A DNA stretch of 63,981 nt, counting the filler, from Kipferlia bialata (lineage: Eukaryota): NCBI GenBank assembly GCA_003568945.1. It is 6 parts of 6 records of this genome, joined end to end, with 100 filler letters (N's around TTAATTAATTAA, not from the genome) between each part and the next. Parts side by side here need not be neighbours in the genome. Positions count along the whole stretch, not along the records: positions 12,006 to 23,902 come from BDIP01001164.1; 5 more parts are not named here. The stretch is one strand, 5' to 3'. The position numbers and the translations under genes were made by a program. This document shows positions 887-59,968 of this stretch, piece by piece. Within the stretch, counting starts at the first letter, position 1, and each line of letters begins with the position of its first letter. The notes below the pieces were generated by a model. The model was not told where the DNA came from, did not search any database, and saw only the letters and a list, made by a program, of their open reading frames with translations.

Positions 887-1760
887 TCAGAGTGTGAAGA
901 GCGACACCTTACTGCACTCTCCCCTTCTGATTACGAGTAGCGTGTCAGTGCTGATCATACATGCACACACAGCTCCTGATTCCTCAGCCTCCAGTGGGGC
1001 AATGTTTAGAATATCCCCAGATACAGAATCATACATACTCACAGTCGTCTGTCCACTCCTACAGTCCCCTCCAAACACCATCACCCTTCCACCGAGAGCA
1101 GTATCAGTATCAGTATCATCACTGATGCCGATACCGACAGCAGCCAGTGTGTTCCTATATGAACCTACCCCGCCACTCACAGGTACTTCCAGCTTGTGGA
1201 ACCCTATAGGATCACGGAGAGAGAGGCCCGCCATCCTTCCCCCTGACACTACAAGAATGGTACCGCCCGTGACAACGGTCGAGACTGACAGCGGATAGAA
1301 ACGGAACCCGCCAAGACAAGGTGTGTGAACCTCTCTCCAGGTCTCAGTCTCAGGGTCCAGAATGTGGCAGGTAGACTCCACCTCTTCTACCTCCTTTTTC
1401 AGCTTGGGGTCCTCAAGAGAGTGATATGGCAGGCGGCAGCCCCCCAACAGGATTAGCTTGCCCTCAACGCATGCTAGGCTGGGGTCCGAGCGTCTGAGCG
1501 TCTGAGCGTCTGAGCGAGGTGCGGGCATACTGTCATTGTCACATACTTGCACCCACTGAGGAGACTCAGGGCAGAGAGTATAGCGGAAGAGGGCTGTGGA
1601 TCTGACACCGCCAAAGAACATGCCTTTCCACATGTGGTGGTAGGACACTAGCGCCCAGACGCATCCAGGTGTGGTGCCGAGTACTAGGGTGTAGACATCA
1701 GGATAGGGGTTGTCATAGCTGTCCCAGGGACCGGGTATGGGGTGTGTAGCAAGACTTGGG
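887..1760 (-). CDS. Kelch/beta-propeller-like protein, long terminal exon; upstream exons probably extend to about 3600
   Basis: Open frame after a CAG acceptor at 1761, with kelch-like blades (MFFGG, GKLILLGG..ILDPETETW, GRVMVFGG..MYDSVSG). Small candidate upstream exons at about 2260-2376, 2707-2760 and 3540-3600 are not firmly joined. Confidence 0.6.
1488..1516. repeat. 8-bp tandem repeat (GAGCGTCT) x3 inside coding exon
   Basis: gagcgtct gagcgtct gagcgtct gagcg read directly. Confidence 0.9.
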
Positions 1761-3902
1761 CTGCCAGAGGTATTAAGAGAGAAGTTAAGACTGCAAACTC
1801 TGATGTGAGGGAGTTAAACCGGAAGGTCACATGGGTATATATACTGTGTATGTATGTGAGAGAGTTAAGACTGTACTCTCGGGTTGCCTACTTCTGCATT
1901 CTGGCAGAATGGAATATAGGGATTCTTAATTGATGTGAGAGAGTTGAACAGGAAGGTTACATTGTGTCTATACACAGACATATATTGTATATATGACCTA
2001 CATGAAGACACCCCCCCTCCTAGTGGTTTCTTCTATTCCCCAGTACCAGTATAGGTATAATATACCTAGTACATCTACCACACCCACAGGCCTAATACTG
2101 ATATGTGAATATGTGTGTGCATGTATGTGTGTGCATGTATGTATATATATGTGTGTGTGCATGTATTTGTGTGCATGTATGTCTCACCTGGGTACAGTTC
2201 TGCCACAGGTACCTGGGGAAAAAATGTGTGTAGAGAGAGAGAGAGAGAGAGAGAGTCACCTGGGTACCGTTCTGCCACTACCCTGACTCTCAGTGTACAC
2301 ACCCCATGCCACTCCATGTGAAACAGTGATGACATGGCTGTAGTGTCTCCTGTGGGTCTTGTCTTCATTAGAGACAGGTACCTGGGGATTAGAGGCGTAT
2401 AGAGAGAGCGAGGGAGAAAAATACACATATGTCTATGTGTCTTCATCATAGACAGGTATCTGGGGTAGGGAGGGGGAGGGGGTATAGTAGAAGAGGGTGC
2501 ACAGTGAGAGTAAATGCGAGCAAGAGTACAAGTGACATAGTGGACTCCACTGTCAGTGGAGGCTTGTATATACATATAGTTACACATAGATACACCTACA
2601 TATATATATAGATACATATATACCTATATATATAGACGTATATATGCGTATATATATATATATATATATATATACATGACACAAGCACACAGATAGAAGG
2701 GATTACCTCAAAGTGGTCTGTCCACCACTGGGGCAGCATGATCTGACTGTTAGCCACGGATGAATATATATATGTATAGATAGATACAGAGAGAGGGGGG
2801 GGTGGATCTGACCATTTGCCGGATAGGGAAGGGTATGTGTAGAGAGGGAGAATAGTTACTGTATACACATATATATACATATATATAGATATAGTGGTGT
2901 ATGTCTACCACTGAGGCAGCATGACCTGACTGTTAGCCACGGATGAGTTTATTTAGATAGATATATATATAGAGAGAGAGGGGGGGGGCTTGTCCATTAG
3001 ACAGAGAGAGACAGAGAGAGAGAGAGAGACAGAGAGAGGGGAGTCTGACTATTAGGCAGAGAGAGACAGAGAAACATAGAGGCAGAGAGACAGAGAGACA
3101 GAGAGAGGGGGGGGGGGGATCTGCAGTCAGGGATATCAATGCACACAGGTCAGGGAGAGTAGAGGTGAAATGTAAATGTACGTGGATAACCACACAGTTA
3201 ATGAATATGTATGGAGTGGTATCAGTCGACTTTATGTATATGTATATGAGGTGGGTGATCGTTGGTGTAGGTCGAGGGGGAAGTGTATGCCATCAGTATC
3301 GTAATAGATAATGAATGCATGGAGTATACACTTCCATGTATACAGGTATGTAGTAGCACTTGAGACAGTAATATACACACACACCACATGCATTGGTACC
3401 TTATCAGACACTGTCCACACCGGAATGGAATAACAGAAGTGAACGCAATCGGTGTTGATCGGTCACTTACAGATGAAACATAAGGGGCTAGAAATCGGAT
3501 ATATTGGGAAGGGTTTGAGTGTGAGGAGAGAAGATATGCAAGGTGGAGTCGTTCTTCTCTAGGCTCTCTCTCTCTGCTACGTAGGACTGCCACCAGGCGG
3601 TATGAAGGTATGGTGCGTTATAACGCAGAATACTAAGTGTTTGATTGTGTAGATATCTGCATGTATGACGTATCAAACAACCGACAACAGCGATGATATA
3701 TATATGTTAGATGTATATTATGTATAGCATAAGATACAGTGTCAGTTGGTCACTCCCCCCCCCCCCCCCCTTCCTTTTTTCCCTCCCCCCCCCCCCCCCC
3801 CCCGTTCCTTCCTCCACATCCCTTCCTAATCTTTCCCTATTCTCTTGTGTTTACCACTCACTCTTATATATACCTGTGTATGCATCTCCCCTCTCACCCT
3901 AG

Positions 3903-6900: not shown

Positions 6901-9900
6901 CAAAGGTAGGGGTTGCAACAAGTATATATTGGGTCTCTATATGAGAATTTGTGTTCATCTCTGACACCGACAGGACGACCAGAGTGATGTCATGGAGATC
7001 TACAGGGCCTGGGAGAACTACAAGAAGCAGTTCCACCTCTATGACAGATCTGACTGGGTCAGGCACATTGTGGCACAGTATGCATCACACAATGGGTCCT
7101 TTACATCAATGCCCGTGGATAGGATCTACTTCGATGAGGTGAGTGTCCGATGTCAGTATATTCTTTGTGATATACTCATAGTGAGTGGTCTCTCACCCCC
7201 AGGTTCAGGATGTGCCCCAGTGTATCATTGGTATCCTGTTCAAGCTCTGCCCAGCAGCTGCATCCTGCTACTTTATGGTCGGTGAGGATACGTGTAGATA
7301 GTACTTATATACGTCATTCCTATTAGCCATTATCTTACTCTCTTCCCCTTATTTCCAGGTGACACTGCCCAGGCTGTGACAAGGGGTGTCGGGTTCCGGT
7401 TCTGTGACCTGAGGGAGTCCTTCTACCACATGCTCCTCAACAACAGGTGGGAAGGGGTATGCATCATATGTATGTATGTGTATATAGCACGTAATAGTAC
7501 TGACCTCCAGGCTCATCAACAAGAGTACCACCATTCCTCCCCTGATCCACTTCAGAGACAACTTCAGGTTTGGATATATACCAGTTTTACCCCCATTGTG
7601 TTGGCGTTGCGATATTGGTACTTCTCTTTCCTATTGTTGTGCTAGTAGTAAGTTGTGGTGAGTGATCTTACCCTAGGGCTACACGCAACCTGGTCAGGAT
7701 CAGTGCTGTGGTTGCAGCCACTCTCCAGCAGGTACATACGTATACCCAAAAGCACTGGTGATTGTGTATATTCACTAACTCCGGCCGTAGTTGTTCTTAT
7801 ATGCAGGCCTTCCCTGACGTTGTTGACAGACTGGCTACTGAGAGGCCGAGGAGGAAGGAGCATGGGGATGTACCCTCTCTCTGTGTATGCAGCTCTGACA
7901 CTGGGACTGACTCCCTCTTGAGTCTGGTTGGGCTGGGGGGGACTCAGGAGTCAACATCAGGTGTGTGTTTATGACGAGAGTCCACCAATATATATCTTTC
8001 TGTCACTCTGTATGAGTGTGACTAATCTTACCCTAGGGTATGTTGAGTTTGGGTCCCACCAGGTCATTCTCTACAGAGAGGAGGGTGACCTCACGGAGTC
8101 GACTCGCCTGGCTGATCTAGGTGCCACACTATCTCTTTGGCTTCTCAATGTGGTACTTCTATATGACTCTTGTGGGATGATCAGAGTAGTGTATCTCTCT
8201 GACCTCTAGGCAAGCTGGGTCTGAGCATGTCAGTATCTGAGTCCAAGGGCCTAGAGTTCGATGAGGTGTGTATCTATATATTACCATCTATACTAATGAG
8301 ACCTCACCTAACACCCAGGTCATCCTTGTCAACTACTTCTCCAAGAGCCGGGTGGGCTGGGACGTATGGGCCACCCTATCATCTGGCAAGGCGCACAAGG
8401 CAGGGGCTGCTGGGGCACTCTCCCACGCCGAGAGAATGGCACTCTGCCACGAGCTGAAGGTATAGAATCCACTATCATAATTGGTTTTCCATATACTGAT
8501 TCACACATCACGTCCAATACAAGGTCTTCTACGTGGCCATCTCTCGTGCAAGAGACAGACTGATCCTGGTGGAAGAGGACGAGAGTGTCGTATCCAACAA
8601 CTCTCTGGTCATGAAGCTGGTGGAGAGGGGCTTTGTAGAGGAGAGGCCTCTCTCTGTAGTTGTCTCCTCTTCCACCACTACTACTGATACCACTCCCATG
8701 GGTACCCATGAGGACGGTTCCTTCTTCCTCTGCAAGGCCAGGGACTGGGTGACACTGGCAGACTCCCTACTCGACAAGGCGTGCTACTCTGCCACCCTTC
8801 GGTCTGCACAACTGGCACTCAGTACCCTGGAGGGGTGGGAGGAGAGCGGAGCAGAGGAAATCAGAGAGAAGGCTGAGGTACTACAGGCTCTGGCACAGGC
8901 GTATCAGCTGGCCGAGAGTGCGTCAGAGCGCATTAAGAGTGAGAGTGGCAAGCACGACGCATTTGTATCAGCTGCAGCTATGTTCATGGAGGTTGCTGAG
9001 AGAGAGAGGGCAAGGAGAGAGGGAGCAGACGCAGGTGTCTCCATATCCAAGAGAGAGAGGGGGGCCTGTGAGTTGGCCGGTCGCTGTCTGGCTTCGGCAG
9101 GTATGTATATATTCATTATTCTTTCTTGAGTGATATTCCCTCTTTTGCTCTGTCCCTTTGATATAGTTATGGAATGCATCTGTGGCTGATACCAGGTATT
9201 TACGCTGAAGCCGGAGCGATGTATGAGAGGGCGGCCTGTGTCGCACCGGGAGAGACCCCATCCTCCGCTGCCTCCAGGCTGTTGTCTCTGTCAGTGTCCT
9301 CATACACACTGGCCAAGGACTACCTGGGATGCTCTAGGTGGGTCCTGTACTCTAGTATACGTCCACTCTCTATCACGCGGCCACTCTCACCCCAGGACCT
9401 CCTTCCTCCGCCAGAGGCACATCGACACTGTGGAGTATGCTGCCAGAGGAATGAGGACAGTGATAGCATACCACGGAGTGGCAGGGAGAGATGACACCCA
9501 GGCTGGGAGAGAGCTAGAGCACCTCTTAGTACAGGTAGATGCAGTACTCAGTCAGGGTCCACTTCCCACAGAGTCATCTCTCGATGGGAAGGGCCTGAAG
9601 CCTGAGTACCTTTCGGCAGTCACTGCGGCCTATCTTTGCATGTACAGATACTGCATAGGGACAGATGAGGAGAAGTCACTAGTGTATGTAGACTCTTCTG
9701 CTGCCGTTGCTACAGTATGTGCCGAGTTACTCTTCCTGCCCCGTTTCGGTGCTGTTGCTGCAGCCAAGTGTCTGCCCCAGAATGAGTGCAACATTCTCTC
9801 TCTCTTCCTACCGATCCCCCCTTCGATGGACGCAGATGCAAGTGCAGCCAGACACAGTAACAGGGAGGATGCCGCTGCAGAGACAGAGTTTGGGTGGGTG

Positions 9901-11905: not shown

Positions 11906-12005
11906 NNNNNNNNNNNNNNNNNNNNNNNNNNNNNNNNNNNNNNNNNNNNTTAATTAATTAANNNNNNNNNNNNNNNNNNNNNNNNNNNNNNNNNNNNNNN
12001 NNNNN
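11906..12005. other. Artificial contig linker N44-TTAATTAATTAA-N44
   Basis: Identical 100-nt spacer with stop codons in all six frames. Confidence 0.98.
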
Positions 12006-12049
12006 CTGTGTTTTCTCTCCCGCCCCCCCCCCCCCCCCCCCCACCCCAG

Positions 12050-12304
12050 GTCCAGTCCCCTGTCATTCTCTCAGAGTTCTCTCTCGAGACAGACCCTGAC
12101 TATGCATACACCAGTGAGAGCGTGCTCATCCCACTCACAGAGCTCGATTCAGGTGCCTGAGTATGGCTCTTTCTTGGTTCATGGAGACACTGTGTGTGTC
12201 TCTTCTCTACACAGACTTATCCCAGGTCTCCGTATCATGTACCTCAGGGCCCTGAGAGTAGGACCCCTGGTGTTCTTCAGGTATTCTCTCTCTCTCCCTC
12301 ACAG

Positions 12305-12337
<33 letters not shown>

Positions 12338-12964
12338 GACAGCAGGATCGAGCTGGAGGAGGGCTACAGCGTCGACTTCTCCACGGCTGACATCTACATC
12401 CTGATAGACAGCAGCCTCAGCACCAGAGAGCATCCAAATAGGTGGGGGTGGATGGTACATCATACTCCTCGTGTGTCTCAGGCTTTGTGGACACGTATAT
12501 ACTATATATTCTCACCCACCCACCCCCAGGTACATTGCGTATGACAGCGTGGCTGCTGACTTCCTGATAGGCAATGGGGTGCTGTATGCAAGGACCCAGC
12601 CCGACTCCACAGACTGGTGGTGGTGGCTACCAGGGCAGGGCTCAGACTACAAGTACGGGGGTGATGTATATAGCTGACTTTGGTATCCTACTTGTCTCTG
12701 TGTATTAGTAATACATCTCTCTCTCTCTCTCCCTCACCCTCTAGGTCGAGTGATGACTGGGAGTGGGAGGCGGTCTCACCCTCTGCATTCACGTGGACAG
12801 ACGGCAATGTCATGGAGGTGGGGGAACAGGGACACTGTGTATATGTATACTGTACCCATACTCAGTATATAACAAGTGTACCTCACCCCCAGGTCGTGGT
12901 CCCCCTCAGCGTGCTGGGGATAGAGGCCCTCTCACAGCCGGTCCTAAGCAAGTATGTGGCCTGC

Positions 12965-12995
<31 letters not shown>

Positions 12996-13516
12996 TCCTC
13001 ACCCTAGATACCTCGACTGCCTAGTGGTGGCCAAGTCCCTCAGCAGTGAGGTGCTGCGGTACCTGCCTTCCCTTGACGATGCAGCTGTCGTGAGGGCCAC
13101 AGTGGTACACCCATTCAAGGTATGCATACATATATGTATTATATATGATACTGATACTGATACTGGTGGTTCACCCCTTCAAGGTATGGGGGTGGTGAAT
13201 GGGTCAAACAGAATACTGTCTACTGATGATCTCTCTCTGATGTAATACCATTCTTTGCATCCTCTCAATATACCAATCAGCCCCTCAACCTAGCCCTTCT
13301 GTCAGTATTCTCTCTCTCTCTGAAGTATCTCTGTATCCTCAATATATACTATTTACAGTTATCAGTATCTCCCCCCAGAACCTAGCCCTTCTGTCCGGTG
13401 TGCTGGGTGTAGTGGGCATCATCGGGGGACTGTACTGGTACTACAAGAGAGTGACCGATGGAAGGAGGGCCACGGTGGAGAAGACTCGCATGAAGGTCAA
13501 GTACAAGTACTCTTAG
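12050..13516 (+). CDS. Type I membrane protein, C-terminal part (5' partial): beta-rich DOMON/CBM9-like ectodomain, one TM helix, basic tail
   Basis: Spliced: DIYILIDSS...AADFLIGNGVLY...DWWWW...WEWEAV...GNVMEVVVPLSVLG; TM LALLSGVLGVVGIIGGLYWYY; tail KRVTDGRRATVEKTRMKVKYKYS*. Confidence 0.6.
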
Positions 13517-13721
13517 GGGCAGAGACAGAGGGTGTAGTGGTAGCGATGGTTTCTAGCAGTTGGCCCCGAACCAGAGGTTCAGCGGGGTATTCAATAGACA
13601 ATACTGTATTCTCAAGAGACCCATGATTGAATGATGATAGAACAGGGCAACACGCATTTATCACACCATATCACAAAACACAAAACACGAAAACACATTC
13701 TTCCTCTCTTCTTCCACCATA

Positions 13722-15325
13722 TCACCGTGTCTCTCCACTTGTGGACTCGTCCAGCTTCTGAAGCACCCTGGGGTGAGGGGTATTCAAGGATAATCATATA
13801 TAGAAATAGTGCAATGTGTTGCCAGGGTCCTCCCGACATGCAATATACACATGTAGACTACCCCTGACCTGATCTTGGCCTGGTCCACGGTGCTGAGGTC
13901 TGTGAGTCGGAACTGGTCCTGCGAGGCATATCTAGAGGGTGAGTGTGTGTATATACATAGATACACACTTATATATATATATATATATCTGAATAGCCAC
14001 CCTCTCACTCTCTTCCCCCTACCTCCTAGGGCATGGGCTCTTGTCCGTGAGTGTGTATATATATATGTGTGTGTATATATATATATCTGAGTATGTAAGG
14101 CACTACCTCCTAGGGCATGGGCTCTTGTCTGTGAGGAGTGGGACATACCACATGGGGGGGCACACAAACACCACCTGCATGGGTATCTCCTTGATGATGG
14201 TGTTGGCCCTGGGGGTGAGGTGAGGTAATACACTACACTACACACTCACATCTGGTATATATATATTGATATAGAGTACATAGCTATATACAAGGGATGC
14301 CCTCATACCTGACCCCCTTTGGGTCTGCCAATAACTACGAATATACTGATATAGAGTATAATCAACGGAGTATAGTACTGATATAGTATAATAAATCACT
14401 ATCAATCCACACCTGACCCCCTTTGGGTCTGCCAGCACATTGACAAAGGAGAACTGCACAGGGGGGAAGGCAGGGTCCTGGGGTGAGACAATAAATCAGG
14501 AGAAAGTAGTATACAACATGCATACCTTGAAGAAGACCCTGACCCAGACCTCAATTTAACACTAATGTATATTCATGAAAGAGTATTCACATTATGTAAA
14601 ACCTCTATATATAATAGTGGTGCATGTGTATATAAATGTGTATATCCACCCTACCTTGAAAAAGACCCTGACCCAGACCTCGAACACTCCATAGCCCTCT
14701 GTGGTGATCTCATAGGGGGGGTTGGTCACAATCCTAGGGGTCAGGGGGAGGCAGAGAGCGGGCATAAGAATACCTTTCTACCACCTATCTCCCCACTTTC
14801 ATCACTGCTTCTACCATTGAGAGGTACCATACTGACTGTTCCCCCTCTCTAGACACACACATATATATATATCATACCCTTACCTCACTGGTCCGTCGAA
14901 GGATGCATGCAAGTAGAACACCACCCTGTCCACCCACTTGGATATGTCAGTATTGTCAAGGGCCCTGGGGTCAGGGGTACTCAGTCAGACAGCGGTATAT
15001 AGTCAGCCATACCAGACAGAGATCATAGTATTACACTGCATCTACCCACCTGACAAATGTAGTCCAGGAGAAGAGGTCCGTGTGTCGGGATCCACTGGAG
15101 ACCTGTGATTAGAGGGGGACTAGGGGAGGAACCCGGGGAGGGGGGGGAAGTCTCCCTGTTACATACGGAAAGAGTCTTCCAATAGAGCGTGAATAGACTC
15201 ACCTGAATCTTCTTCTCACACACCACTGACGTGTTCCCAAACACTAACGTCTTCCACACCAGTGCGTTACAGACCTCGTCTCCGTCAGCTGGAGTTTCAG
15301 GGGTGGCATTGGTGCCTATGTGCAC
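13722..15325 (-). CDS. YEATS-domain acyl-lysine reader (Yaf9/GAS41-like architecture), first exon missing
   Basis: Spliced: KTLVFGNTS...FSWTTFVRALDNTDISKWVDRVVFYLHASFDGP...IVTNPPYEITTEGYGVFEVWVRVFF...IIKEIPMQVVF...short C-terminal helix, TGA at 13722-13724. Confidence 0.88.
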
Positions 15326-15552
15326 CTGGAGGTCAAGAGTAACATGCTAGGGGTATAAGAGACTGGCTCTGCTAGGGGTATAAGAGGGCCGGAGAGGGGG
15401 GGGGGGGGGGGGAAAGGGGGAAATAAAACTAAGGGGGGGAAAAAACCCCCCCCCCCCCCCCCCCCCCCCACCATCCCCCATTCCACTCTAAGACTCTGTG
15501 AATCTATATATACACATTCCTTCTTCCTCGAACCGCCCCCGTCCTCACCCAG

Positions 15553-17778
15553 TACACCAAGAAGTACATGGCCCAGTACGGTATAGACAACGTAAGGGGA
15601 GGCAGTTTTACTCAGGTTGGTATTGACTATTGTCTCTTTCTGGTCATGTAATGTGTCTTTACGAGACTCTCTCACCGGTACCGACATAACAATAATATAT
15701 ATATATATACATATACTATAGTATATTATAAATTTATCTATTTATTATCTTGGTATTCCCTTTGTCTCACTACACGATTCTTTCATATTCCCTAAGCGCT
15801 CTCTTTGACATCAGGAGAGGCTTACTGCGGCTGAGAGGGAGGTACTCACCAAGGAGATAGCAACGGCAACAGACAGGTGCAGTGGACTCGTAACTCTCCC
15901 AGGCACAGCGGGACATATACATATATATGTATATATATACATCCCTTTGGTTCTGACCTCCAGGTGCTTCTACTGCCACGAGAGGGGACACATTGGAGCC
16001 AACTGCCCCAACAATGGGGGGAAGGTGGGGTGTCTCTCATTTCGAGAGTATATATGTATTAGTGTATTCAGTTGGGCTGCAAAGGATTTGTGACAGAAGT
16101 ACACTGACCCCACTCACTGCAGGCACCTATGACCAGGAGTAGACAGAGCAAGGGGGCATCAAGGGGAAAGGTGGGTGATATATGGTACATTGTCTAGTCG
16201 TATACTCCCCCCTGACCTCAGGCTGTGGAGTGTGAGAGGTGTGGACGCAACCACCCGACCAGCAAGTGCTATGCCAGTACCGACATAGACGGCCACGACA
16301 TTAGTACAAGTGAGAGTGAGAGTGAGGTAAGTAATGTCTCCCCATGCGTGAAAACAGAGATTAGCTTATTTGTCTACGTAGAGTGCCTATGCTCATCTGG
16401 GTCTCAGGAAGTAACCCCAGGGTGTGTGTCAGAGGTGCGGCAGGGATCACCCCACCCACTCCTGCTATGCACGCTCACACGTGGATGGCCACCCCCTGCC
16501 CTCCACCCCCAAGAGGTCCCAGGCTCAGGGGTCCCAGGGGGACAGAGGGGCATCGGAGCAGGTGTGTGTGTTGAAAGCACTGTTGGGACGTCCCTGATCC
16601 CATTTCAATACTATTGTATCCCACTTACTAACGTCATATGCACCCCCTCTCCCTGTCCTCACCTCTCAGGGAGGTGTATGCATGAGATGTGGACGCAGGC
16701 ACCGCACCGCTGGTCCCTGTAGATACACCACACACAAGGATGGATCCAGGTACTATACACGCATATACGGGTGTATCTGTGTCACTTAGTACTTCCGTTT
16801 CGCCATGCCATGATCCTAATACAGGCTGGATGTCGAGATGTCCTGTACTACTACTTCCAACAAGCCCTCTGTCCCTGATTGCGAGAGGTGTGGGAGAGCA
16901 CACAAGACCCGTCCCTGTGTATACAAGACCCACAAGGACGGTCGCAGGTGTGTCATTATTGCCTAGTTTGACTGTTTTCTTTCAATGCTGTACTTCCCAT
17001 GTCCACCCTAGCCTAGTACCCGTGGCCCAGAGGCCATCCCCCTACCCTGTCCCCACCCCAACATGGGGCACCCAGCCCCAGGTGGTACCTGTGGTACATG
17101 GGAGTCAGACACAGGTGCACACACTATACCGTCCTTTGCAGTCTGGTCACCAGTCTGGTCTGGTCACCACATTGTATAAGAGCCAAAGTCAATATTCAGT
17201 GGTAGCCACCGACTCCTCTTCTGACCGTTAGGTTGTATCATACACCCAGCAGGTCACTGTGGCCCAAGCGGGTTACGCCCATCCGATGACCATGCAGCCC
17301 ATGCCTACCAACCCCTATGGGTCTCAAGGTATGGCCGGAATGAGTCATAGTATGATGCAGGTGCAGGGTACTGTACCTGTGGGTACTCTGCAACTGGGTC
17401 AGCAGGGAGTGCCGCAGTACGGGTCAGTGGTGCCTGCCCAGCTGGTGGGACCAGCTACTGTACCTGTCTATGCAGCACCTGTGAATGTCAACCCCTATGC
17501 TAGGGGTCAGGCAGTGGTTGCTGCCCCCTCCCAGTACGGCCAGGCCACATACACCCGTGTACAGGCACATGCCCAGCAGATCTCACAGGTGGGGTTAACT
17601 AGAGTATATGCACCTATTATTCTATGAAGATAGTCTGACGCAGATTGTACCTTCCCCTACTGCCGCTACCCCAGTGGCCCAGCCTACCCCCACCCCTACC
17701 TCTGGCAAGAAGGCCAAGAAACCCTGGTGCACCAAGTGCAGACGGGCTGGACACTGGATATCCCAGTGCCGCAGCTAG
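15553..17778 (+). CDS. GIY-YIG-like nuclease C-terminal half + CCHC zinc knuckles + four CxRCGRxH repeats + Pro/Gln-rich region (5' partial)
   Basis: Exon 15553-15615 YTKKYMAQYGIDNVRGGSFTQ; then ERLTAAEREVLTKEIATATDR and CFYCHERGHIGANC; CERCGRNH, CQRCGRDH, CMRCGRRH, CERCGRAH units; terminal CTKCRRAGHWISQC RS*. Confidence 0.75.
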
Positions 17779-18078
17779 AGCCACTGTTGTTGTTGGGCTG
17801 TGTATTCGTATTAGACCCGGGTTCCATCAGAATATCTATAGGGTAACCCAGCAGGAGACAACTGACCCTTTGGACAAACGCATATATATTGTTGATCTAC
17901 TAGTGTCTAATGGACCATTAGACTAATGGTATTTCTCCACATCCCAGCTTGGCTATTTAGCGAAGCAGCACATTAAAAGAACCGTGGACACAAAATCCAC
18001 TCCGGCAACCTCACCTAGGGCACTGCTAATCATGAGCCTCATGGTTGGACCCCAGGTGTCTCTGACTGATAGTGACTA

Positions 18079-20937
18079 CTAGTAAAGACTCAATCTACGT
18101 GAACTGCTCCAGTCTGCACTCGGCCAGACAGACAGGGCCTGCCTTGCCACGCTGCCTGGGGTCAACGGCGGGATTGGTATGATTCCACGAAAGATACATA
18201 CGCTGCTGGTGTGGTACTTGACAACCAATATATGTTTGCCAAAGTACATGTCTCTCAACCATGCATACAGAAGAGGGTCAGCTGAAGTATACATGTGTGA
18301 CATGGCCCCTACCTGAACAGGAGAGTGCCGTCTGGCCTCTGGTACATGGTGCCAGGGTTCATGTTGACGCTTGTCCAGCACTGCCACTCTGCTGAGACAG
18401 TGTCGTAGCTGGGGTCAGAGATACATATAGGGGGAGAGTGATACTACAATGAGGTTGTGACGAGGATGACACTGCGTGTGGGAAGTCCATCGACAGTCCG
18501 CCTCTGCCCAATACATCTACAGAGCCGGTGTATGTTAGAAAATACTTGTCATACATGAGAGTTCCCTTGTCCAAAGGGCTCATTAAGGCGACCCTGGTGC
18601 CAAAGACGGCTGTGGACCAGTTGGTACCAGGGTAGGGGATCAGTGATACATCCAGACCACTCTTCTGCTGATCAGACACAGTATACAAGACTCTGACACA
18701 ACAGTCATTCACTCCCCTAGCACTCTTGCTACATGTTACCTCAAGGTTCCCCCAGGCCTCTTCGGTCTGATCCTCCCACCCTGTCCGGGGTGAGTATCGA
18801 AACAGGCCAGCCAACGACGCAGGGTGAGTGTGCCCTCTCACGCTCATATAGGCCGCCCCATTCACTACTCCAAGTTGGGACAGAGGTATGTCTGTTGAGT
18901 AGTGGTGGTTTGACATCCGTTCCTTCTTATGAGCAATTCAATATGACGTATTATAACACACCAGAGCTGTACACACATAGAGATATATATATAGAGAGTG
19001 ACTCAATGAAGACTAAGGTCCAACGTTGCGGTGGTTCAGATATGTACAGATACATAGAACACATAACCCTGACACACCTTCAGCACATGTGACACGGCCT
19101 GCGGCATGGGCATTCTGTCCCACACCCCTTCCATGGTGTCATACCGACAGAAGATGAACTCCATGTGGTCTTTTCTGTGCTGTCGCTGGGCCTCCCTGAT
19201 GCGGCACTGTGCCTCCAAGCCTGCAGGCAACACCAGCGGTGGGTCAGGGTCGTACCCTATGTAGTAGAGACAGTCCTCAATGGCAAACCCAACAGCCAGG
19301 TCAGGGCCCTCCCAGACTAGGGGGGTCCAGGCACCTGGGGATGAGAGGGCCATAGCATGTGGTGTATGATACGAGAATAGGATATCCCCCTGACCTGTGT
19401 CTAGGTCTAGCACTGCGAAGCTCTGTGGTGCTCCATCCTCCCTGTGGGATGCAGCATACCTACGCGGTAAGAGGATAAGACTACTGACATAAGTCACAAT
19501 GTATGGAACTAGGGGTACATACAATCTGCTGCCTATGGCATGGACTGGGCCTCTGTGGTTGTGTAGGAAGGAGGGGGATACACTGAGAGGTGCGCCAGTG
19601 ACCAGGCCCTGGTGCATGAGATATACATGAGATGCGAGAGACACTCCATCCAGACAGAGCCATATGTATACATACACTGAGTCCTGGACATCTCCACACA
19701 CAATCCATACTCACTCAAACAGTCTCTCACTAGGATGGTTACGACTAGCACCCACAGTTGAATAGTGGCAATGAGTACTCATGGCGTACCTTGCTTCCCC
19801 TGGCCGGCAGATGCATGATCAGGCACTCCCCGTGCACTATATTGAGAGAGAAACAGTAGCGCTGGAATGGTAATATAGTGGTACTTGGGTGTATAGGAGC
19901 TATAATAGGACCATATATCACCGGCACCTGAGTCCCCTCTGCTGGGCAGACACAGGTAGTCGGAGGCAGAGAGCATGTGAACAGGCTGCAGCCTTCCCCC
20001 GTGTCTCTTGTTGGCCTGTCCAGACGCACACATGGCCTGGAACCTGGGACACACACTGAACTCTGAGGTGATCCTTAACTCGGGGTGGGCCTGGGATGGG
20101 ATGGTAGCCAGGGATGCCATGAGAGTACCCATATATGTATGTTACATCTCGATCTCAGTAGCAACAGAGTGCATCACCTTTCTGACACACTCAGGATGGT
20201 GCTTGTTCAGAAGGACCTTCTCCTTTGGGGCATTGGGCTCAGTTCTGCCATAGCGGATTGACCTGATGATGAGTATCTCTGATGCAAACAAACACATTAC
20301 ATGAAGACATAGTATCTGTGACAACTGGGCAATGAAAGCTGCGCATTCAAGCGTGTAGTGAACTGATACTTCTACACAGTGAAGTCTACTTGACAGTATC
20401 AAAGTGATACTCTCACCATCTAGGGGGTGGCTTCTTGAGGGCAGACTTGAAAGACAGTACATGGTAACGACCTAGGATGAGGGAGGGATGGTTGTGAGGG
20501 GGAGGGGGGTAATGGATTGTGGATCACTCAGTCACCAAGGCAAATAGAGAGTTGTGGGAGGAGGGACCAGTCAGAAATGAGGGATATGAATAGAAGAGAG
20601 AGACACACCCTTGCTGGAGCAGCCCAGGGTGCACGGATAGTCACACGGGCCCCCACTACTCTTCTTGTGAGCACACCTGACAGCCGTGTGGGAGGCTGAG
20701 GGTGAGGGAGACGGAGGGGGAAAGGGAAGAAAGAAGGGGGGAGGGGGGAAATGGGAGTGGGGACACCGGCGGGGATTGAGGATGGGAGACAGATATATGC
20801 ATACGTACGTATATGTGTCTATGTACTGAACTCTACCAATAGATGTATGATTCCTCCAACTCGGGTCACACCCTGCCCCCCCCACCTGTTGTCGCCTCCC
20901 ATATCCGACCACTCATTCTCTCCATCTCGTCCAGCAT
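18079..20937 (-). CDS. Uncharacterised multi-exon protein, probably a divergent kelch/beta-propeller; boundaries uncertain
   Basis: Exon-like blocks with beta-blade patterns: AIGSR, FAVLDLDT, FAIEDCLYYIG, RYDTMEGVW, VVNGAAYM, RYSPRTGW, AVFGTRVALM. Confidence 0.45.
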
Positions 20938-21571
20938 GTCTTCAAGGGTGTCAAACCGCATGGACCACAGAGAGGCATCGAGGTCAGACGCCTCATAGCC
21001 AGCGGGGACATGAGTCGGAGAGAGAGGGGGGGGGGAGAGAGACGAATAAAGAAAATGAATGTGAGCTGAGTCAAGAGTGGGACGGGGGGGGATGTGAGAT
21101 TAAAGAGGGGTGTTCAAACCATAAATCAGAATGAATTGTTATCAGTCAGCCCCACCTTAGCTTTCCTCCCTGTGGCTGCCTTCCCCGTATTTTTCGGCAT
21201 CGTTGACTGTGTAGCCGACAACACAAGTTAGGAAGCGCGAGAAAACACGAATCACACGAGATACGATGAATGAAGTGAGGGAAGGTGTGCAGTATAGCTT
21301 GGATGTTGTTTTTGGGCCAATTGGCATGTCAACCCTTTCTCAAAGTGTATTGTAGTGACATCCAACGAGCCACTGAGAAAGGACACATCCGCTGCCTTAC
21401 ATCTATTGTTGAGGCAGAGTAAAAACTTGGTTCCTTGTACAGTCATTATAGAAATAGATACTTTGATTCAATTACACATATAAAGAGAATAGAATAGGGA
21501 ATGTGAGCAAGTGAGTGTGCCTAGCAATGTATATGTGCATAGCACTATACTGGTACCCCACATCCCCATCA

Positions 21572-23737
21572 TCAGGCACCCCTCTCCATGTGAGCCTCGA
21601 TGGCCTGCACCCATGCTGCTAGGTGACCCTGCTCAGTGAGTAGGTACCACGTCCTGGGGGGTGTTATGATGCGTATACACGCCATGTCCATGCTGTGTGG
21701 CCCAGCAGGTGCCACAGCCAGCTCAGCATTGGGGGGCAGGCTGATGACACCCCGAGAACTGGCATCGCCTTCCTCGACATAGTATCTGACAAGAGGGTCG
21801 CTCTTCGATATGGTGAACCACCTTCGCTTCCAGTTCTTGATAAAGGACCCTCTCTTTGTGAGCCACCCGCTGTGATGGCCGGGGTATGCTGCTAGGCCCT
21901 TTGGGGGGATGGGGGGTGCAAAGTGAAGCTGAGACAGGTCAATGGAACTATATCCCGATGCTGACGAAGAAGTAGTATCTTCCTTGGAAGGAGCGTTGCC
22001 ACTCTTGTGAGCCTTGAGGTCTCTGAACAACTCATCCATAGCCAAGTCTGTCTCCTTCACACACCGGGCCCCAGGCTCTGCCCGTGCCTGCACATCCAAT
22101 GCACCGGCACCCACCAGCTGGTAGAGCAGCCTGACTCCCCTCCCATCCTTGGCAGACACCTCGGTGTAGAAGGCACCATACCTGGGGGGTCAGGGGTGTG
22201 TCAAGTTGAGGGCACATAGCCCCCACAGATACAACCCACCTCTCTGCCAGGGCACATCCCTCCTCGTACTGGACACCTCGCTCTCTCTCCCCTGGAGACC
22301 CGTCCATAGGATCTACAATGTCCAACTTGTTGCCAACAAGAGCCACAAACCTAGCTGGTAAGACACACTTACACATAGAGATACAGCCCATGCGCATGTG
22401 GCACTGTCTCACCTATCCTGGGACACCCCTCTGGCCATCTTGATGAATCCCTCCGCATACCCCAGAGACACCCTCTCTGTCACATCCAGTACCACAAGCA
22501 CCGCCGCACTCCCCTTGATGTACATTGGGGTCAGGGAGTTGTATCTCTCCTGCCCAGCGGTGTCCCAACAGCTGAACTCCACCTGGGTGCCAGTGTCTGA
22601 GTACGGCACGGTGTGCTTGAGGAAGGCAGCACCTATCGTGGCATGGGAATCGTCCATGAAGGAGTTCCTGGCAAACCGTTGCAGAAGACACGTCTTGCCA
22701 GTGCCAGAGCCACCTATCAGCGCAACTTGGAGGGTTGTCTGAGGGTGAGATATAGACAGGCATGGAGTGGAAGATGGTTAAGGGAATAATGGATGAGGGA
22801 CCATGTTTTACCATGTCAATCAGATACACAGTGTGCCACTACCTGGAATGTAGCTGCCCTCGATATCTGTGCCAGTGTCTGTTCCAGACTGTGCTGCATG
22901 TCCAACTGAGCCTGTCTGACCTACAGGGGTGAGGGGGCAAGTATCTAGTCGGTCTAGCCATAGGCCTCATATTAGTATACACTAGTATATATATAAGGAG
23001 GGAAGCAGAGTTCGGTGGTAACTCACGGTAATATACTCAGGAAGCAGGTTCCCGCAGAGCCATGCGACTGCATATCACAATTCAGTCGAGAATCGGATTG
23101 AAAGATATTGTGGAATGTGAAGGACTACTGTGAAACTAGCAGCTGCTTAGAAGAAGTAAACTCGCTGCATGCGTACCTTCTCATACCGCTCTGAAGCCAC
23201 TGCATTCTGAGTGGCTAGGGTGCTCTGACATGAGAGGGGAGAGGAGGAGGATATGGAGGGAGAGGCAAGTCAGATGGTGAATACATACCAAGCACATACC
23301 CTGATATCCGAGAGCATATCTGCATACTCACCCCCTGCCTGGGCCAAATACACCCTCACTCTCCCCATGTCCTCCCTACTCACACCCCCACTGCCTCCCA
23401 TGGTCTGTATGGCCTCCTTGATAGATGCCATGTCCTGCTGTACTGCCTCTGCTGCCTCCCTCCCCTGCTGCATGTGCCTCACACCCACATCCAGACACAG
23501 CTGGGAGGAGAGAGAGGTCAGCTCACGCTCAATGCCGGTGAACTCATCATCTGCCGCCTTACAGCACAGGACGCGACGGAGAGGGGAGAGAGACCCGTAG
23601 AGATCGAGATATGCACCAACACGCTCTACACAGGCCTTGAGAAGTAGGAGACTCGAGGACTGAGTGTTACCAGATCCATTGGAACCCTCTGAGAGACAGG
23701 TGCTATAGGCATTGATGGGCTCAGAGAGAGCCTCGAC
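21572..23737 (-). CDS. MLKL-NTD/HeLo-like helical bundle + coiled coil + Rab-like small GTPase + PH domain fusion (5' partial, 536 aa visible)
   Basis: Phase-consistent GT-AG exons complement(23300-23737, 23177-23224, 22843-22920, 22413-22738, 22240-22350, 21572-22181). G1 GGSGTGKT, G2 TIGAAFL, G3 WDTAGQE, G4 GNKLD, G5 SAK. PH: HSGWLTKRGSFIKNWKRRWF...RTWYL...AWVQAI. The Rab and PH calls are strong; the MLKL-like call is pattern-based. Confidence 0.85.
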
Positions 23738-23902
23738 CTGGGGTAGGCTGGCGATACATAACTGTTGTGCAATACAACAACGATAGAAAGGGAGGATAGA
23801 GAAGGGGGGAGTATTGTTACGTCAAGGAGAAGATAATGGGTATTGACATTAATGGTAGAAGGGAAGGGGGGGGGGGGGGGGGGGGGAAGATGAATAGAAC
23901 CA

Positions 23903-24002
23903 NNNNNNNNNNNNNNNNNNNNNNNNNNNNNNNNNNNNNNNNNNNNTTAATTAATTAANNNNNNNNNNNNNNNNNNNNNNNNNNNNNNNNNNNNNNNNNN
24001 NN
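23903..24002. other. Artificial contig linker
   Basis: N44-TTAATTAATTAA-N44. Confidence 0.98.
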
Positions 24003-35897: not shown

Positions 35898-35997
35898 NNN
35901 NNNNNNNNNNNNNNNNNNNNNNNNNNNNNNNNNNNNNNNNNTTAATTAATTAANNNNNNNNNNNNNNNNNNNNNNNNNNNNNNNNNNNNNNNNNNNN
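35898..35997. other. Artificial contig linker
   Basis: N44-TTAATTAATTAA-N44. Confidence 0.98.
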
Positions 35998-37008: not shown

Positions 37009-40000
37009 CTATAGAAGATGATCTCTGCCTAGCTCTAGTGCAATGCGCTTAGGGGGGCGGGACCTAGAGTCAATGGTAATGGGGTCACATGATGACTATC
37101 CACGAGAATTCACGCAGAACTGTATTTGTACAACAGTTTAGTAGTACATATATGAACAGACCCCCACCTGCACGTGTGGGGTAGACCCAGTCCCACCCAT
37201 GCCTCATCAGAGAGGGGCAGGGAGGGGGAGGCACCTAGGGACAGGAGGCCGGAGACATACTGGGGGTGAGGGACACGTCAAAAACACATGATATAATGAT
37301 ATGCATACACCCATACCTCACTGTCCTCTGTGACTATGGCTGTAGTCAGTGCCGTGCACAGGGCATGGGAGAGAGAGGGGTCAGCGGCAACGTCCTCCCT
37401 GGTCAGCCCCTGTCCCATGACATGCGTCATCAGGGGTAGACCAAGGGTGGGGGGGAGGGTGGTTACTATCACTGAGGCATAGGGGAGAACAGGGGGGGGC
37501 TTGGACCTGGTTCCACTAGGGGTGGAGGTGGGGCGAGAGGGAGAGGAGGGGAGGGTGAATGGGGACGTCAAGGTGTCGCCACCCCTCTCTCCCTCTGCAC
37601 CTGCCTGTACTGACACCGATGGCTGGTATAGCAGGAAGGGACTGTCAGCCAGAGAGGCAGAGAGTGTAGGGGGGTCTCTCTGGCATATCTCGCAGGATGC
37701 CGCAGCAGCTATGTACTCTGTCAGCTCCCTGACCCCGGCCTCTGTCTCTGTCTCATACCCCTGTGTGTACAGACCCCCTGCCTCGGCCTCACCCTCTGCC
37801 TCACCCACCCCCAGGGCTGTATACAGCATGGGAAGGGCAGGGGGGAGGGGCCTAGTTGGGTCACTCACTCTACAGTCACCACCCCCTCTAGCCCTCTGCA
37901 CTACACCCCTTGCCCTCCCTACTGCTGGGTGTCTGGGGCCTAGGTCTGTGACAAGGCCTGCCAGACAGGCAGCTATGCAGGAGAGGGCGGGGGAGGAGGG
38001 GGAGAGACCACCAGGTGACATGGCAGGTGTGTCCTCTACCCCAGCTATACCCTGGTATGTGCCATCACTAGTGGTGTCACCTGCACCTTCACCCCACAAG
38101 CACTGTAGATACACACCAGTCAGTGCCCCAATACACTTGGCAGGACCGAACCCCTGCACTGCATAGTCGAGTATGCACTGACAGACAGCGGCAGAGGCAG
38201 AGGCAGGGTCGGGGGTGGGGTGGGGGGGTGATAGGAGGACGGCCAGGGAGAGAGAGTGACACAAGGCATCCAGTGAGATGGAGCCATGTCTGTCTCTAAC
38301 ACCATGGCCAGTGGACACACTCCGCCTAGCTACTCCCTGTCTGTGACCCCTGGCCTGTGTCTGTGTCCTACTTGACCCTCTGTCCATATCAACATCCATG
38401 TCCATATCCATGTCTACATCTGTCTCTGCCTTAGCAGCATCGAGTACCATGCCCACCCACTCCAGCCTCTCTCTCTCCCCTCCCCCTCCCCTCACCACTG
38501 CCAGGTCCAGCACAGTCTGACAGGGCAGGGGGAGGGGGGGAGGGGGAGGGAGGAGACCCCCTGAGGGGTATACAGCAGGCTGTCTCTGGTCAGGTGATGC
38601 ATGGTCTGTATCAATGCGACCCCCCACCCTGACCCCCTCGGATAGTAGCACTCTGCCACACTCCACTCTGCCTGGGGGTGGGTATGGGGTGTAGAGACAC
38701 ACGCATGATCATGAAGGCATACGATACATATATACACACTATACACCCACCTAGCAGACATGCCAGAGACAGGGCAGACAGAGGGGTGTGTACACCCTCC
38801 CCCTCTCCAGACCCATGTGTCACACGGGTATGCATCACCCTATGCAACAGGGATTCCTCTCTCCCTGCTGCCCCCTGCGCCCTGCAGTGCTGCAGTACTA
38901 GGGACAGACACACATCCCTACCTGGGGGTGGGGGCGGGAGAGAAAGGGAATATAACGGCGTGCTAGCGATCATCCAAACACACATGCGTATATGTATTCA
39001 TGGAATGGGTTCTATCCATGAGCGGTCAATATATCAATCTGTAAACCATTACTAAACATATCCACCCCGATACCTGTGTGTATGCAGGTGTGCACCAGGG
39101 CTGGTGTCATCACCCTGTTGAGGTGGGTGTGGGTGTACTCTGAGTCCAGCAGCACCTGCAGCCACTCTGTCTGGTTGTGATACACAGCCACATCAAGTAG
39201 AGATGGCCCAGGGGGGGAGGGGGGAGGGGGGAGAGGGAGAGTGGCGGCCAGGGAGGGAGAGGCCACGGCCAGCAGACACCTACCCCTCCCTATGCATGCA
39301 GGCCCTGCCCTGACAGCATGGTAGAGGGCTGTGTGGCCTTGATTGTCTGGGGCATCCACCTCTGCACCTCTAACAACCAGACTACACACCACGGCATCCA
39401 TCACATCTATGGCAGTGTCATCAGTGGCACCCCCTCTGTGTGTACCATGTGCACTGCCACTGACACTCTGCATGGCATGGTGTAGGGCAGTCATGCCCAG
39501 GGGGTCGGTGTCGGTCACACACACACCCTCGCCCTCTCCATCACCCATGTCTAACAGGGCCAGGGCACAGTCGCCATTGCCTGGAGGTGAGGAGGCACTG
39601 GTACCTATATCCATCATTCTAAGTCTATCACCATGTACATAATCCACTCTCCCCCCACCTGTCTGTATAGCATGCATCAGAGGTGTGAGGCCTGCCTGAC
39701 TCCTGGTGGATAGGAGGGAGGGGTGTGATGCCACCTCCTGGCACATCAGCGACACAGAGCCTGGAGGGTCAGGGAGATCATGATGTATAGAGACATAGAC
39801 AGACACTATTACAACCATAGACCATAGGCATTCCCACCTGCCGATATGCACCGGAATAGCATGTCTCTCTCCCCATGTATAGACTGCAATGCATCCCCTG
39901 TCTGGCTGGATAGCATGTCACATGACCCAGTCACAGTGGTGGAGGCAGGCCCTAGCACACTGGCCATCTCTATCTGCGGCACAGACACAGCCATGGACCT

Positions 40001-56481: not shown

Positions 56482-56553
56482 TCTCTTGTGATATGCGGAT
56501 AAGGTACCTGACTTCTACTCAGGGGATTCCGGGTTCGAATCCCGGCATGAGTA
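56482..56553 (+). pseudogene. Degenerate tRNA-Arg(TCT): pseudo-tRNA or tRNA-derived element
   Basis: Perfect anticodon stem CCTGA/TCAGG with loop CT-TCT-AC; perfect T arm CCGGG-TTCGAAT-CCCGG; acceptor stem has two T:T mismatches; D stem does not pair. Confidence 0.7.
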
Positions 56554-57034
56554 CACTTCAACTTCTTCAGTGTAAATGGTCACTCCTCTCTATTTCGCGC
56601 TATGGCACACTTGACAAAGAAGAGGCTAAACAGTTGTTTATATCTACATGTCTATTCAAGCATACACAACATAAGAACAAAAACTCTTGTGCAGAACCCA
56701 ATCATATATACGACTGATCATCGATCATTGGCTATTGATCTCTCTGAAGGATGTGTACCCGGACTGTGTCTCAATCCTCCTCATTGATGAGCCTAACTAT
56801 CTCCGCATACTTGCCCTCGATACCTGGTATGAATACACCAGAATATGAATGCAATAAATATTCCTATCCATCTCAGAGGAGTATACCCCTCCTATATGTG
56901 TCTGAATGGCCACCTATTATAATAATATGACTATTATAAGTGTACGATAAGTGTATGATAATAGAATCGGTATCGAACAGAAAATACATATTACACTATA
57001 AAAATGATGAATGAACACATGAATGTAAAACGTT

Positions 57035-59868: not shown

Positions 59869-59968
59869 NNNNNNNNNNNNNNNNNNNNNNNNNNNNNNNN
59901 NNNNNNNNNNNNTTAATTAATTAANNNNNNNNNNNNNNNNNNNNNNNNNNNNNNNNNNNNNNNNNNNN
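59869..59968. other. Artificial contig linker
   Basis: N44-TTAATTAATTAA-N44. Confidence 0.98.

What the first reader, a model, noticed from the sequence alone, without database searches (positions are those of the whole stretch)
21572..23737. MLKL-like four-helix bundle fused to a Rab-like GTPase and a PH domain: candidate GTPase-switched membrane-damage/cell-death effector
Seen: six phase-consistent exons join three parts. First is a helical N-terminal region (VEALSEPINAY...LLLLKACVERVGAYLDLYGSLSPLRRVLCCKAADDEFTGIERELTSLSSQLCLDV) plus a coiled linker. Next is a GTPase with all five G boxes intact, then a PH domain. The ORF track splits these and hides the fusion. Established: MLKL-NTD/HeLo/RPW8-type bundles are membrane-permeabilising executioners in animal necroptosis and in plant and fungal immunity, usually controlled by a (pseudo)kinase, NLR or amyloid partner. 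Inference: the hydrophobic periodicity, the LRRVL-x7-F helix turn and the brace-like coil resemble MLKL-NTD. That would make a one-polypeptide system with the GTPase as switch and the PH domain as membrane targeter. I do not know this architecture from the literature. The first helix (first exon) is lost at the contig end.
Basis: partly seen in the sequence, partly recalled or inferred. Interest (0 to 1): 0.88.

Follow-up and report, generated by a model that had tools for sequence, protein, structure and literature searches.

The report
MLKL-like bundle fused to Rab5-like GTPase
A spliced gene of the bacteria-eating protist Kipferlia encodes an intact Rab5-like GTPase and a PH domain, likely joined to a helical bundle that probably belongs to the family of the cell-killing protein MLKL, so it would be a GTP-switched membrane-damaging protein, although that activity is untested.

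Summary
The six exons are real and give one open 536-codon frame. Transcript-like contigs bridge introns 2-5. Intron 1, which joins the helical exon, is not bridged but is a typical 75-base GT-AG intron. NCBI already models this Kipferlia bialata gene as one protein, named 'Ran GTPase', with no N-terminal domain noted. The GTPase is Rab5-like, keeps G1-G5 and has no prenylation cysteine. The PH domain carries a phosphoinositide-binding-type basic motif. The MLKL reading has two sub-threshold but converging supports. Pfam MLKL_N is the best match (E 0.016-0.044, 14-15 bits against a cut-off of 27), and the ESM Atlas returns MLKL_N/RPW8-type clusters by features and by structure (TM 0.68 and 0.58, under its naming bar). 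My AlphaFold models were too poor to test the fold. Helix 1 is missing from the assembly. No relative of the bundle was found, and no paper with this layout. Best reading: an MLKL-type bundle controlled by a Rab5-like switch in place of a pseudokinase, acting at endocytic or food-vacuole membranes. Bundle identity about 0.8; membrane damage untested.

The parts
23447..23737 (-). MLKL_N-like helical bundle, helices 2 (part) to 4; first exon held in the assembly
   Evidence: Pfam MLKL_N profile 32-125 of 142, E 0.016-0.044, below cut-off; Atlas features and structure; transcript-like contig covers 23445-23740
23300..23446 (-). Brace-like helices, rest of the same exon
   Evidence: Predicted helical in a low-confidence model; not covered by any contig; 'brace' is an inference from position
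23225..23299 (-). Intron 1 (75 bases), the junction on which the fusion depends
   Evidence: GTATGT..TGTCAG, last 30 bases 87% pyrimidine against 60-77% in the four bridged introns; not bridged by a contig
23177..23224 (-). Exon 2, amphipathic coil linker
   Evidence: Spliced to exon 3 in one contig; hydrophobic moment
22843..22920 (-). Exon 3, amphipathic coil linker
   Evidence: Spliced to exons 2 and 4 in one contig
22413..22738 (-). Exon 4, Rab5-like GTPase G1-G3, switch I and II
   Evidence: Pfam Ras E 1.3e-26; motifs
22240..22350 (-). Exon 5, GTPase G4 (NKLD)
   Evidence: Spliced on both sides in one contig; motif
22118..22181 (-). Start of exon 6, GTPase G5 (EVSAK) and end of the Pfam Ras match
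21899..21916 (-). Proline-rich PPIPPK motif in a Ser-rich linker, a possible SH3-binding site
   Evidence: Motif found; role inferred from recalled consensus
21587..21877 (-). PH domain with basic beta1-beta2 motif GWLTKRG..WKRRWF
   Evidence: Pfam PH E 5.4e-09; closest solved SBF1, DAPP1, PLEKHA5, GRP1; motif
21572..21574 (-). Stop codon; the protein ends in ..MERGA, with no prenylation cysteine

Best explanation
The gene encodes an intact Rab5-like GTPase and a PH domain, likely joined in one chain to a probable MLKL-type four-helix bundle, and the GTPase would act as the switch that holds or releases the bundle on endocytic or food-vacuole membranes. Shown: splicing of exons 2-6, the GTPase motifs, the PH domain and the lack of a C-terminal cysteine. 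Inferred from profile and language-model likeness (about 0.8): the bundle is of the MLKL/HeLo kind. Inferred from the exon layout (about 0.93): it is in the same chain. Inferred from known families: the PH domain binds phosphoinositides and replaces the Rab lipid anchor; the Rab sits where MLKL has its pseudokinase, behind brace-like helices; nucleotide exchange on the target membrane frees or clusters the bundle, which then perturbs that membrane. In a bacterivore the likelier target is the vacuole around engulfed prey or invaders, with cell death as one possible outcome.
For: One open frame, with four of five junctions bridged. MLKL_N is the top Pfam family for the exon in 5 of 5 constructs that hold most of it; none of the other 119 of 120 long window ORFs lists it (two lists were cut to five rows). 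The match lacks exactly profile positions 1-31, where the transcript contig shows a missing upstream exon. Atlas features: top hit 0.91, with MLKL_N-bearing clusters at 0.89 (26% of members) and 0.86 (62%); among named clusters MLKL_N, RPW8 and MCAfunc sets score 0.80-0.88. Atlas structure: row 1 is the MLKL_N part of a basidiomycete NLR cluster (TM 0.68 over 106 residues), and chordate MLKL (0.58) and PigL_N (0.52) also appear. Models of fungal MLKL-like domains score 0.51-0.64 against MLKL (10.1101/2022.03.16.484565, section 10). The 21 best solved relatives of the GTPase are Ypt51, RabF2b and Rab5 chains; the catalytic Gln is kept. In plant MLKL the brace and pseudokinase bury the bundle (10.1101/681015, passages). 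MLKL also works on endosomes and routes bacteria to lysosomes (PMC8816944, abstract).
Against: The Pfam score of 13.7-15.1 bits is well under the cut-off of 27, and the hit vanishes in the full-length scan and in a 70-residue piece. 18 of the other 119 ORFs also get some weak family at E 0.001-0.1. All Atlas structure rows are under its naming bar; the best TM (0.74) is bacterial DUF8429, and Acyl-CoA dehydrogenase also appears. The Atlas states that shuffled proteins reach 0.9 in 4-10 of 100 cases, and its searches count as one source. The held bundle fragment is net acidic (9 K/R, 15 D/E), and helix 1 is unseen. No relative shares the bundle, so conservation cannot be shown. Intron 1 is not bridged. 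No functional data exist.
Confidence: 0.4

Rival explanations
1. It is a non-lytic trafficking protein, a 'large Rab', in which an MLKL-derived or MLKL-like bundle and coil serve only for oligomerisation or partner binding on endosomes.
For: Rabs with long N-terminal extensions exist among the hits (RASEF-type P0049, P0051, P0053), as do PH-Rab fusions (P0005, P0056). The held fragment is net acidic. Atlas neighbours include MCAfunc and DUF7792 clusters. MLKL itself has RIPK3-independent endosomal roles (PMC11893596, passages). The fungal review cautions that killing cannot be assigned without the N-terminal helix.
Against: None of 78 long Rab-like hits has a similar N-terminus (best E 0.28). 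The order bundle, brace-like helices, nucleotide-binding fold mirrors MLKL and all-in-one NLRs (PMC12881547, passages).
Confidence: 0.25
2. It is a guard or integrated-decoy suicide switch: the Rab5-like domain is bait for microbial effectors that attack host Rab5, and its modification frees the bundle to kill the infected cell.
For: The switch regions keep Rab5-type motifs while the domain is a long branch (2.12 changes per column) and has lost its lipid anchor. Unchecked notes from other genomes report HeLo-like bundles fused to a CAAX-less Rho, a dead G-alpha and Roc-COR (leads only).
Against: All G boxes and the catalytic Gln are intact, which fits a working switch. Switch I and II are not strikingly better kept than in other Rab comparisons (for example 8/16 and 13/22 to fungal Vps21-type rows). 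No paralogue family was found, whereas immune receptors are often expanded (recalled). A long branch may only reflect fornicate divergence.
Confidence: 0.2
3. The N-terminal part is a generic helical bundle or coiled coil unrelated to MLKL, and the weak hits come from helical periodicity.
For: All scores are sub-threshold. phmmer finds no MLKL among solved structures at E up to 10, nor any relative in 1.84 billion representatives.
Against: Pfam and the Atlas converge on one family named in advance. The truncation point fits the profile. Several differently named members of the superfamily (MLKL_N, RPW8, PigL_N) are retrieved together.
Confidence: 0.1
4. The helical exon belongs to a separate upstream gene or a short isoform that stops just inside intron 1, and the Rab-PH protein is made apart from it.
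For: No contig bridges 23299/23225, and 23226-23444 has no reproducible cover. The exon frame runs 10 codons into intron 1 to a stop.
Against: Only 75 bases separate the exons, with a canonical donor and the most pyrimidine-rich acceptor tract of the five introns. All six frame-keeping donors to this acceptor keep the bundle fused. The exon 2-3-4 contig is open from its first codon and ends at the acceptor. NCBI's model makes the same join.
Confidence: 0.05

Closest known systems
Animal MLKL and plant MLKLs (AtMLKL1-3)
   Same: N-terminal four-helix-bundle-like domain, then brace-like helices, then a nucleotide-binding signalling fold.
   Different: A Rab5-like GTPase with intact motifs stands in place of the pseudokinase, and there is an added PH domain. 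Bundle likeness is below the family cut-off, and helix 1 is unseen.
Fungal all-in-one NLRs with HeLo-like or basidiomycete MLKL-like (BaMLKL) N-termini
   Same: Best structural row in the Atlas (TM 0.68); bundle and NTP-binding switch in one chain.
   Different: The switch is a small Ras-fold GTPase, not NACHT or NB-ARC; no repeat sensor domain and no amyloid motif was noted.
Rab5/Vps21/RabF GTPases
   Same: G1-G5, IGAAF in switch I and RY.SL.PMY in switch II; best solved matches.
   Different: About 35-43% identity in the core at best, a long unresolved branch, no C-terminal cysteine, and embedded between two other domains.
Large Rabs (RASEF/Rab45; Rab44 and CRACR2A recalled)
   Same: Long N-terminal extension with a coil ahead of a Rab domain; RASEF-type hits.
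   Different: They carry EF-hands and end in the Rab domain; no similarity to this N-terminus.
Roco proteins (Roc-COR)
   Same: Ras-like GTPase inside a multidomain protein; the Pfam Roc model also matches.
   Different: No COR domain, and the Ras model scores higher (129 against 93 bits).

Membership tests
MLKL N-terminal domain (Pfam PF22215; HeLo/RPW8 superfamily) | Profile score at or above the gathering cut-off (27 bits) | tested here: not met
   13.7-15.1 bits, E 0.016-0.044, on a fragment that lacks profile positions 1-31
MLKL N-terminal domain (Pfam PF22215; HeLo/RPW8 superfamily) | Four-helix-bundle fold superposing on MLKL | tested here: inconclusive
   Atlas model TM 0.68 and 0.58 to MLKL_N parts, under the naming bar; own models had pTM 0.29-0.30
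MLKL N-terminal domain (Pfam PF22215; HeLo/RPW8 superfamily) | Short perpendicular helix between helices 3 and 4 (as described) | tested here: inconclusive
   An amphipathic LSPLRRVLCC segment sits there; the models show a break before it but do not resolve it as its own helix
MLKL N-terminal domain (Pfam PF22215; HeLo/RPW8 superfamily) | Amphipathic, membrane-engaging helix 1 | not testable with these tools
   The exon is outside the contig; only 10 further codons are visible in a contig's loose end
MLKL N-terminal domain (Pfam PF22215; HeLo/RPW8 superfamily) | Membrane permeabilisation on release or oligomerisation | not testable with these tools
   Needs experiment
MLKL proper | C-terminal (pseudo)kinase domain | tested here: not met
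   No kinase family in the Pfam scan of the whole protein
Rab GTPases | G1-G5 nucleotide-binding motifs and catalytic Gln | tested here: met
Rab GTPases | Rab5-type switch motifs | tested here: met
   TIGAAFL and RYNSLTPMY against Vps21/Rab5-type rows; top solved matches
Rab GTPases | C-terminal cysteine motif for geranylgeranylation | tested here: not met
   Ends in ..MERGA after the PH domain
Rab5 subfamily | Groups with Rab5/Vps21 in a tree | tested here: inconclusive
   Quick tree of 75 of 79 proteins: long branch in an open node that also holds Rab5-type and other rows
Ran GTPase (NCBI name) | Closest to Ran | tested here: not met
   No Ran among the 60 shown of 71 solved matches; all are Rab/Ypt
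Roco proteins | COR domain after the GTPase | tested here: not met
   A linker and a PH domain follow; no COR family
Phosphoinositide-binding PH domains (GRP1/DAPP1 type) | Basic K-xn-(K/R)-x-R motif in strands 1-2 (motif definition recalled) | tested here: met
   K456, K465 and R467 of P0001; DAPP1, GRP1 and TAPP1 among 11 solved matches; lipid binding itself untested

The most novel reading that the evidence does not exclude
An anaerobic, single-celled metamonad has built a one-chain executioner in which a working Rab5-type GTP switch replaces the MLKL pseudokinase and a PH domain replaces the Rab lipid anchor. It would punch holes in phosphoinositide-marked vacuole or cell membranes on GTP loading: a small-GTPase-gated necroptosis-like effector far outside animals, plants and fungi.
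Probability: 0.3. Interest if true: 0.88.

Novelty: new variant of a known kind. Interest (0 to 1): 0.62.

Why it matters
A survey of 67 protists reported no homologs of necroptosis regulators, searching MLKL by sequence homology only (PMC7539657, passages). A real MLKL-type bundle in Kipferlia would extend this executioner fold to a deep, anaerobic branch of eukaryotes. Known controllers of the bundle are pseudokinases, NLRs and amyloids (PMC12881547, passages). A small GTPase in cis would be a new control logic and an easy one to test, since nucleotide-locked forms are standard. It would also bear on whether these bundles began as tools for the endocytic or food vacuole rather than for suicide.

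Tried and rejected
No whole genome is held for this window, so paralogues could not be searched directly. No RNA holder is listed on record; X1 is RNA by guess. Searches for relatives of the N-terminal part found only the protein itself: 1 of 991 candidates, 1 of 3291 and 1 in 1.84 billion representatives. There were none in prokaryote genomes or viral contigs. Ten metagenome loci matched only the coil part at 35-42% identity, with E-values relative to candidates; I took them as chance and did not examine them. Two single-sequence AlphaFold models (pTM 0.29 and 0.30) gave uninformative fold searches: Foldseek had nothing at E<=0.001, and VIA-align had best Z 7.3 and 5.8 to long helices, with MLKL not listed, which excludes nothing. 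PADLOC and NCBIfam gave nothing for the bundle. A loose-ended short match at about 23340 first suggested a paralogue; it did not recur and was dropped. I looked for a link between MLKL-like domains and Rab binding in plant PUB13: the passages (PMC4446532) show RabA4B and PI4P binding to PUB13 but name no domain, so I did not use it. PMC9490929 (passages) gave nothing on Rab5. The names 'Ran' and 'Roco' were rejected. Earlier-finding look-ups by place and by sequence were empty.

Full report
Setting. The window is six pieces joined by N-spacers; the finding lies at the end of the piece 12006-23902. The encoded protein is in public databases as a 549-aa Kipferlia bialata protein named 'Ran GTPase' (GIQ83754.1; a cluster of one member on an 11,897-base contig). 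K. bialata is a free-living, bacteria-fed fornicate with many GU-AG introns and a draft genome in 11,564 scaffolds (PMC5874029, passages).

Gene structure. The six exons give one frame of 536 codons and a stop, with all five introns GT..AG. Contigs of run X1, whose RNA nature is a guess by the tool, skip exactly introns 2, 3, 4 and 5; skipping four introns makes a transcript origin very likely. One contig links exons 2, 3 and 4, and another links 4, 5 and 6. Intron 1 is not bridged, and 23226-23444 has no reproducible cover. The case for it is indirect. It is 75 bases long, starts GTATGT, and has the most pyrimidine-rich acceptor tract of the five introns (0.87 against 0.60-0.77). All six frame-keeping donors to this acceptor leave the bundle fused. 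NCBI's model makes the same join. I put the fusion at about 0.93.

The missing start. A third contig covers 23445-23740 and continues for 30 bases found nowhere in the window. Read by hand on the coding strand, these are ten in-frame codons without a stop (TDRKCTLLCQ). So there is an upstream exon off the contig, and NCBI's first 13 residues, drawn from 23849-23738, are not supported. A Cys-x2-Leu-x3-Val pattern at this point resembles helix 2 of MLKL-type bundles as I recall it; I did not test that.

GTPase and PH. Pfam gives Ras E 1.8e-37 and PH E 3.6e-08. G1-G5 are intact and no C-terminal cysteine follows. The 21 best solved matches are Ypt51, RabF2b and Rab5 chains, and no Ran is among the 60 shown of 71. 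The switch motifs are of Rab5 type, with the catalytic Gln (35 rows compared). A quick tree of 75 of the 79 proteins (four dropped for G-domain matches under 110 residues or above the E-value limit; the careful search did not finish) leaves it as a long branch in an open node, so Rab5 orthology is not established. The PH domain is closest to SBF1, DAPP1, PLEKHA5 and GRP1 and has the basic strand 1-2 motif that I recall as the mark of phosphoinositide binders.

The N-terminal bundle. Pfam MLKL_N is the top family for the exon and four overlapping constructs (E 0.016-0.044, 13.7-15.1 bits, cut-off 27). It covers profile positions 31/32 to 119/125 of 142; a 70-residue piece and the full protein lose the hit. 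As a control I scanned all 120 window ORFs of 110 codons or more. Only this one lists MLKL_N, but 18 of the other 119 have some best family at E 0.001-0.1, so a weak hit as such is common. What gives it weight is that the family was named in advance and that the unmatched profile part is the part the assembly lacks. The ESM Atlas, one further source, gave a first hit of 0.91 to unnamed basidiomycete proteins, and MLKL_N-bearing clusters at 0.89 and 0.86. Among named clusters it returned MLKL_N, MCAfunc, DUF7708 and RPW8 sets at 0.80-0.88, with one unrelated set at 0.80. The Atlas's own model (whole protein pTM 0.40) aligned residues 14-123 to the MLKL_N part of a fungal NLR cluster at TM 0.68, to bacterial DUF8429 at 0.74 and 0.68, to chordate MLKL at 0.58, to PigL_N at 0.52 and to an unrelated acyl-CoA dehydrogenase at 0.50; every row is under the naming bar. 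Published models of fungal MLKL-like domains score 0.51-0.64 against MLKL (10.1101/2022.03.16.484565, section 10 read whole). My two single-sequence models were too poor to test the fold. Their helix boundaries (about 2-19, 25/31-47, 52 onward) fit helices 2, 3 and 4 plus brace, but this is weak. I estimate 0.8 that the domain is of the MLKL/HeLo kind.

Relatives. None was found for the bundle. Of 78 other long proteins matching the GTPase-PH part, none has PF22215 precomputed or a similar N-terminus. Two unnamed ones are PH-PH-Rab with terminal cysteines, in the reverse order. That search scored only the 7,993 candidates with most shared words and lengths 301-961, so it is not exhaustive.

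Mechanism. The layout copies MLKL (bundle, brace, nucleotide-binding regulator), where the regulator and brace bury the bundle (10.1101/681015, passages). Here the regulator is a Rab5-like GTPase without its lipid anchor, followed by a likely lipid-binding PH domain. I infer recruitment to phosphoinositide-rich endocytic or food-vacuole membranes and nucleotide-dependent release of the bundle (0.40). MLKL has documented non-lethal endosomal and antibacterial roles (PMC8816944, abstract; PMC11893596, passages), so membrane action need not mean suicide. Rivals are a non-lytic large-Rab scaffold (0.25), a decoy-triggered suicide switch (0.20), an unrelated bundle (0.10) and a split gene (0.05). 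The held fragment is net acidic and helix 1 is unseen, so pore formation rests on family analogy alone.

Literature. Full-text searches found 0 papers for MLKL + four-helix bundle + GTPase + protist, 0 for HeLo-like + small GTPase + fused + cell death, and 1 for Kipferlia + MLKL, which reports no necroptosis homologs in 67 protists (passages). Listings showed no such architecture by title or abstract start. In four papers searched for the word (passages only), 'GTPase' did not occur. The library lacks most subscription papers, and I read no supplements; domain tables there could hold this layout. Unchecked notes from other genomes describe HeLo/MLKL-like bundles fused to a CAAX-less Rho, a dead G-alpha and Roc-COR. 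They suggest a recurring theme but are not support.

Verdict. This is a new variant of a known kind: a probable MLKL-type bundle with a small GTPase as in-chain regulator in a metamonad, so far a single orphan gene with an incomplete start. Interest 0.62.

Noticed in passing
window 11906-12005, 23903-24002, 35898-35997, 47887-47986, 59869-59968: The window is six separate pieces (five of about 11.9 kb) joined by N44-TTAATTAATTAA-N44 spacers, so sequence beyond 23902 is not the gene's upstream region.
   Followed up: yes
window 23738-23849: The public model's first 13 residues come from intron-like, pyrimidine-rich sequence and disagree with the transcript-like contig; its name 'Ran GTPase' also does not fit.
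   Followed up: yes
window 23270-23299: If intron 1 were retained, the frame would stop after 10 codons and give a bundle-plus-brace product without the GTPase, which could be an unregulated short form; no evidence that it is made.
   Followed up: partly
P0005 and P0056: Two unnamed proteins from environmental assemblies have PH-PH-Rab order with C-terminal cysteines, a separate Rab-PH fusion type.
   Followed up: partly
window 56482-56554: tRNA-Arg (TCT) gene.
   Followed up: no
window 890-1813, 8500-9126, 39015-39917, 42561-43298, 47499-47885: Other coding pieces: Kelch repeats, a weak UvrD-like helicase end, ankyrin repeats, a weak kinesin motor match and a helicase C-terminal domain; none is on the finding's contig.
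   Followed up: no
window about 23300-23340: A short contig match with a long loose end appeared but not; possibly a paralogue, more likely chance.
   Followed up: partly
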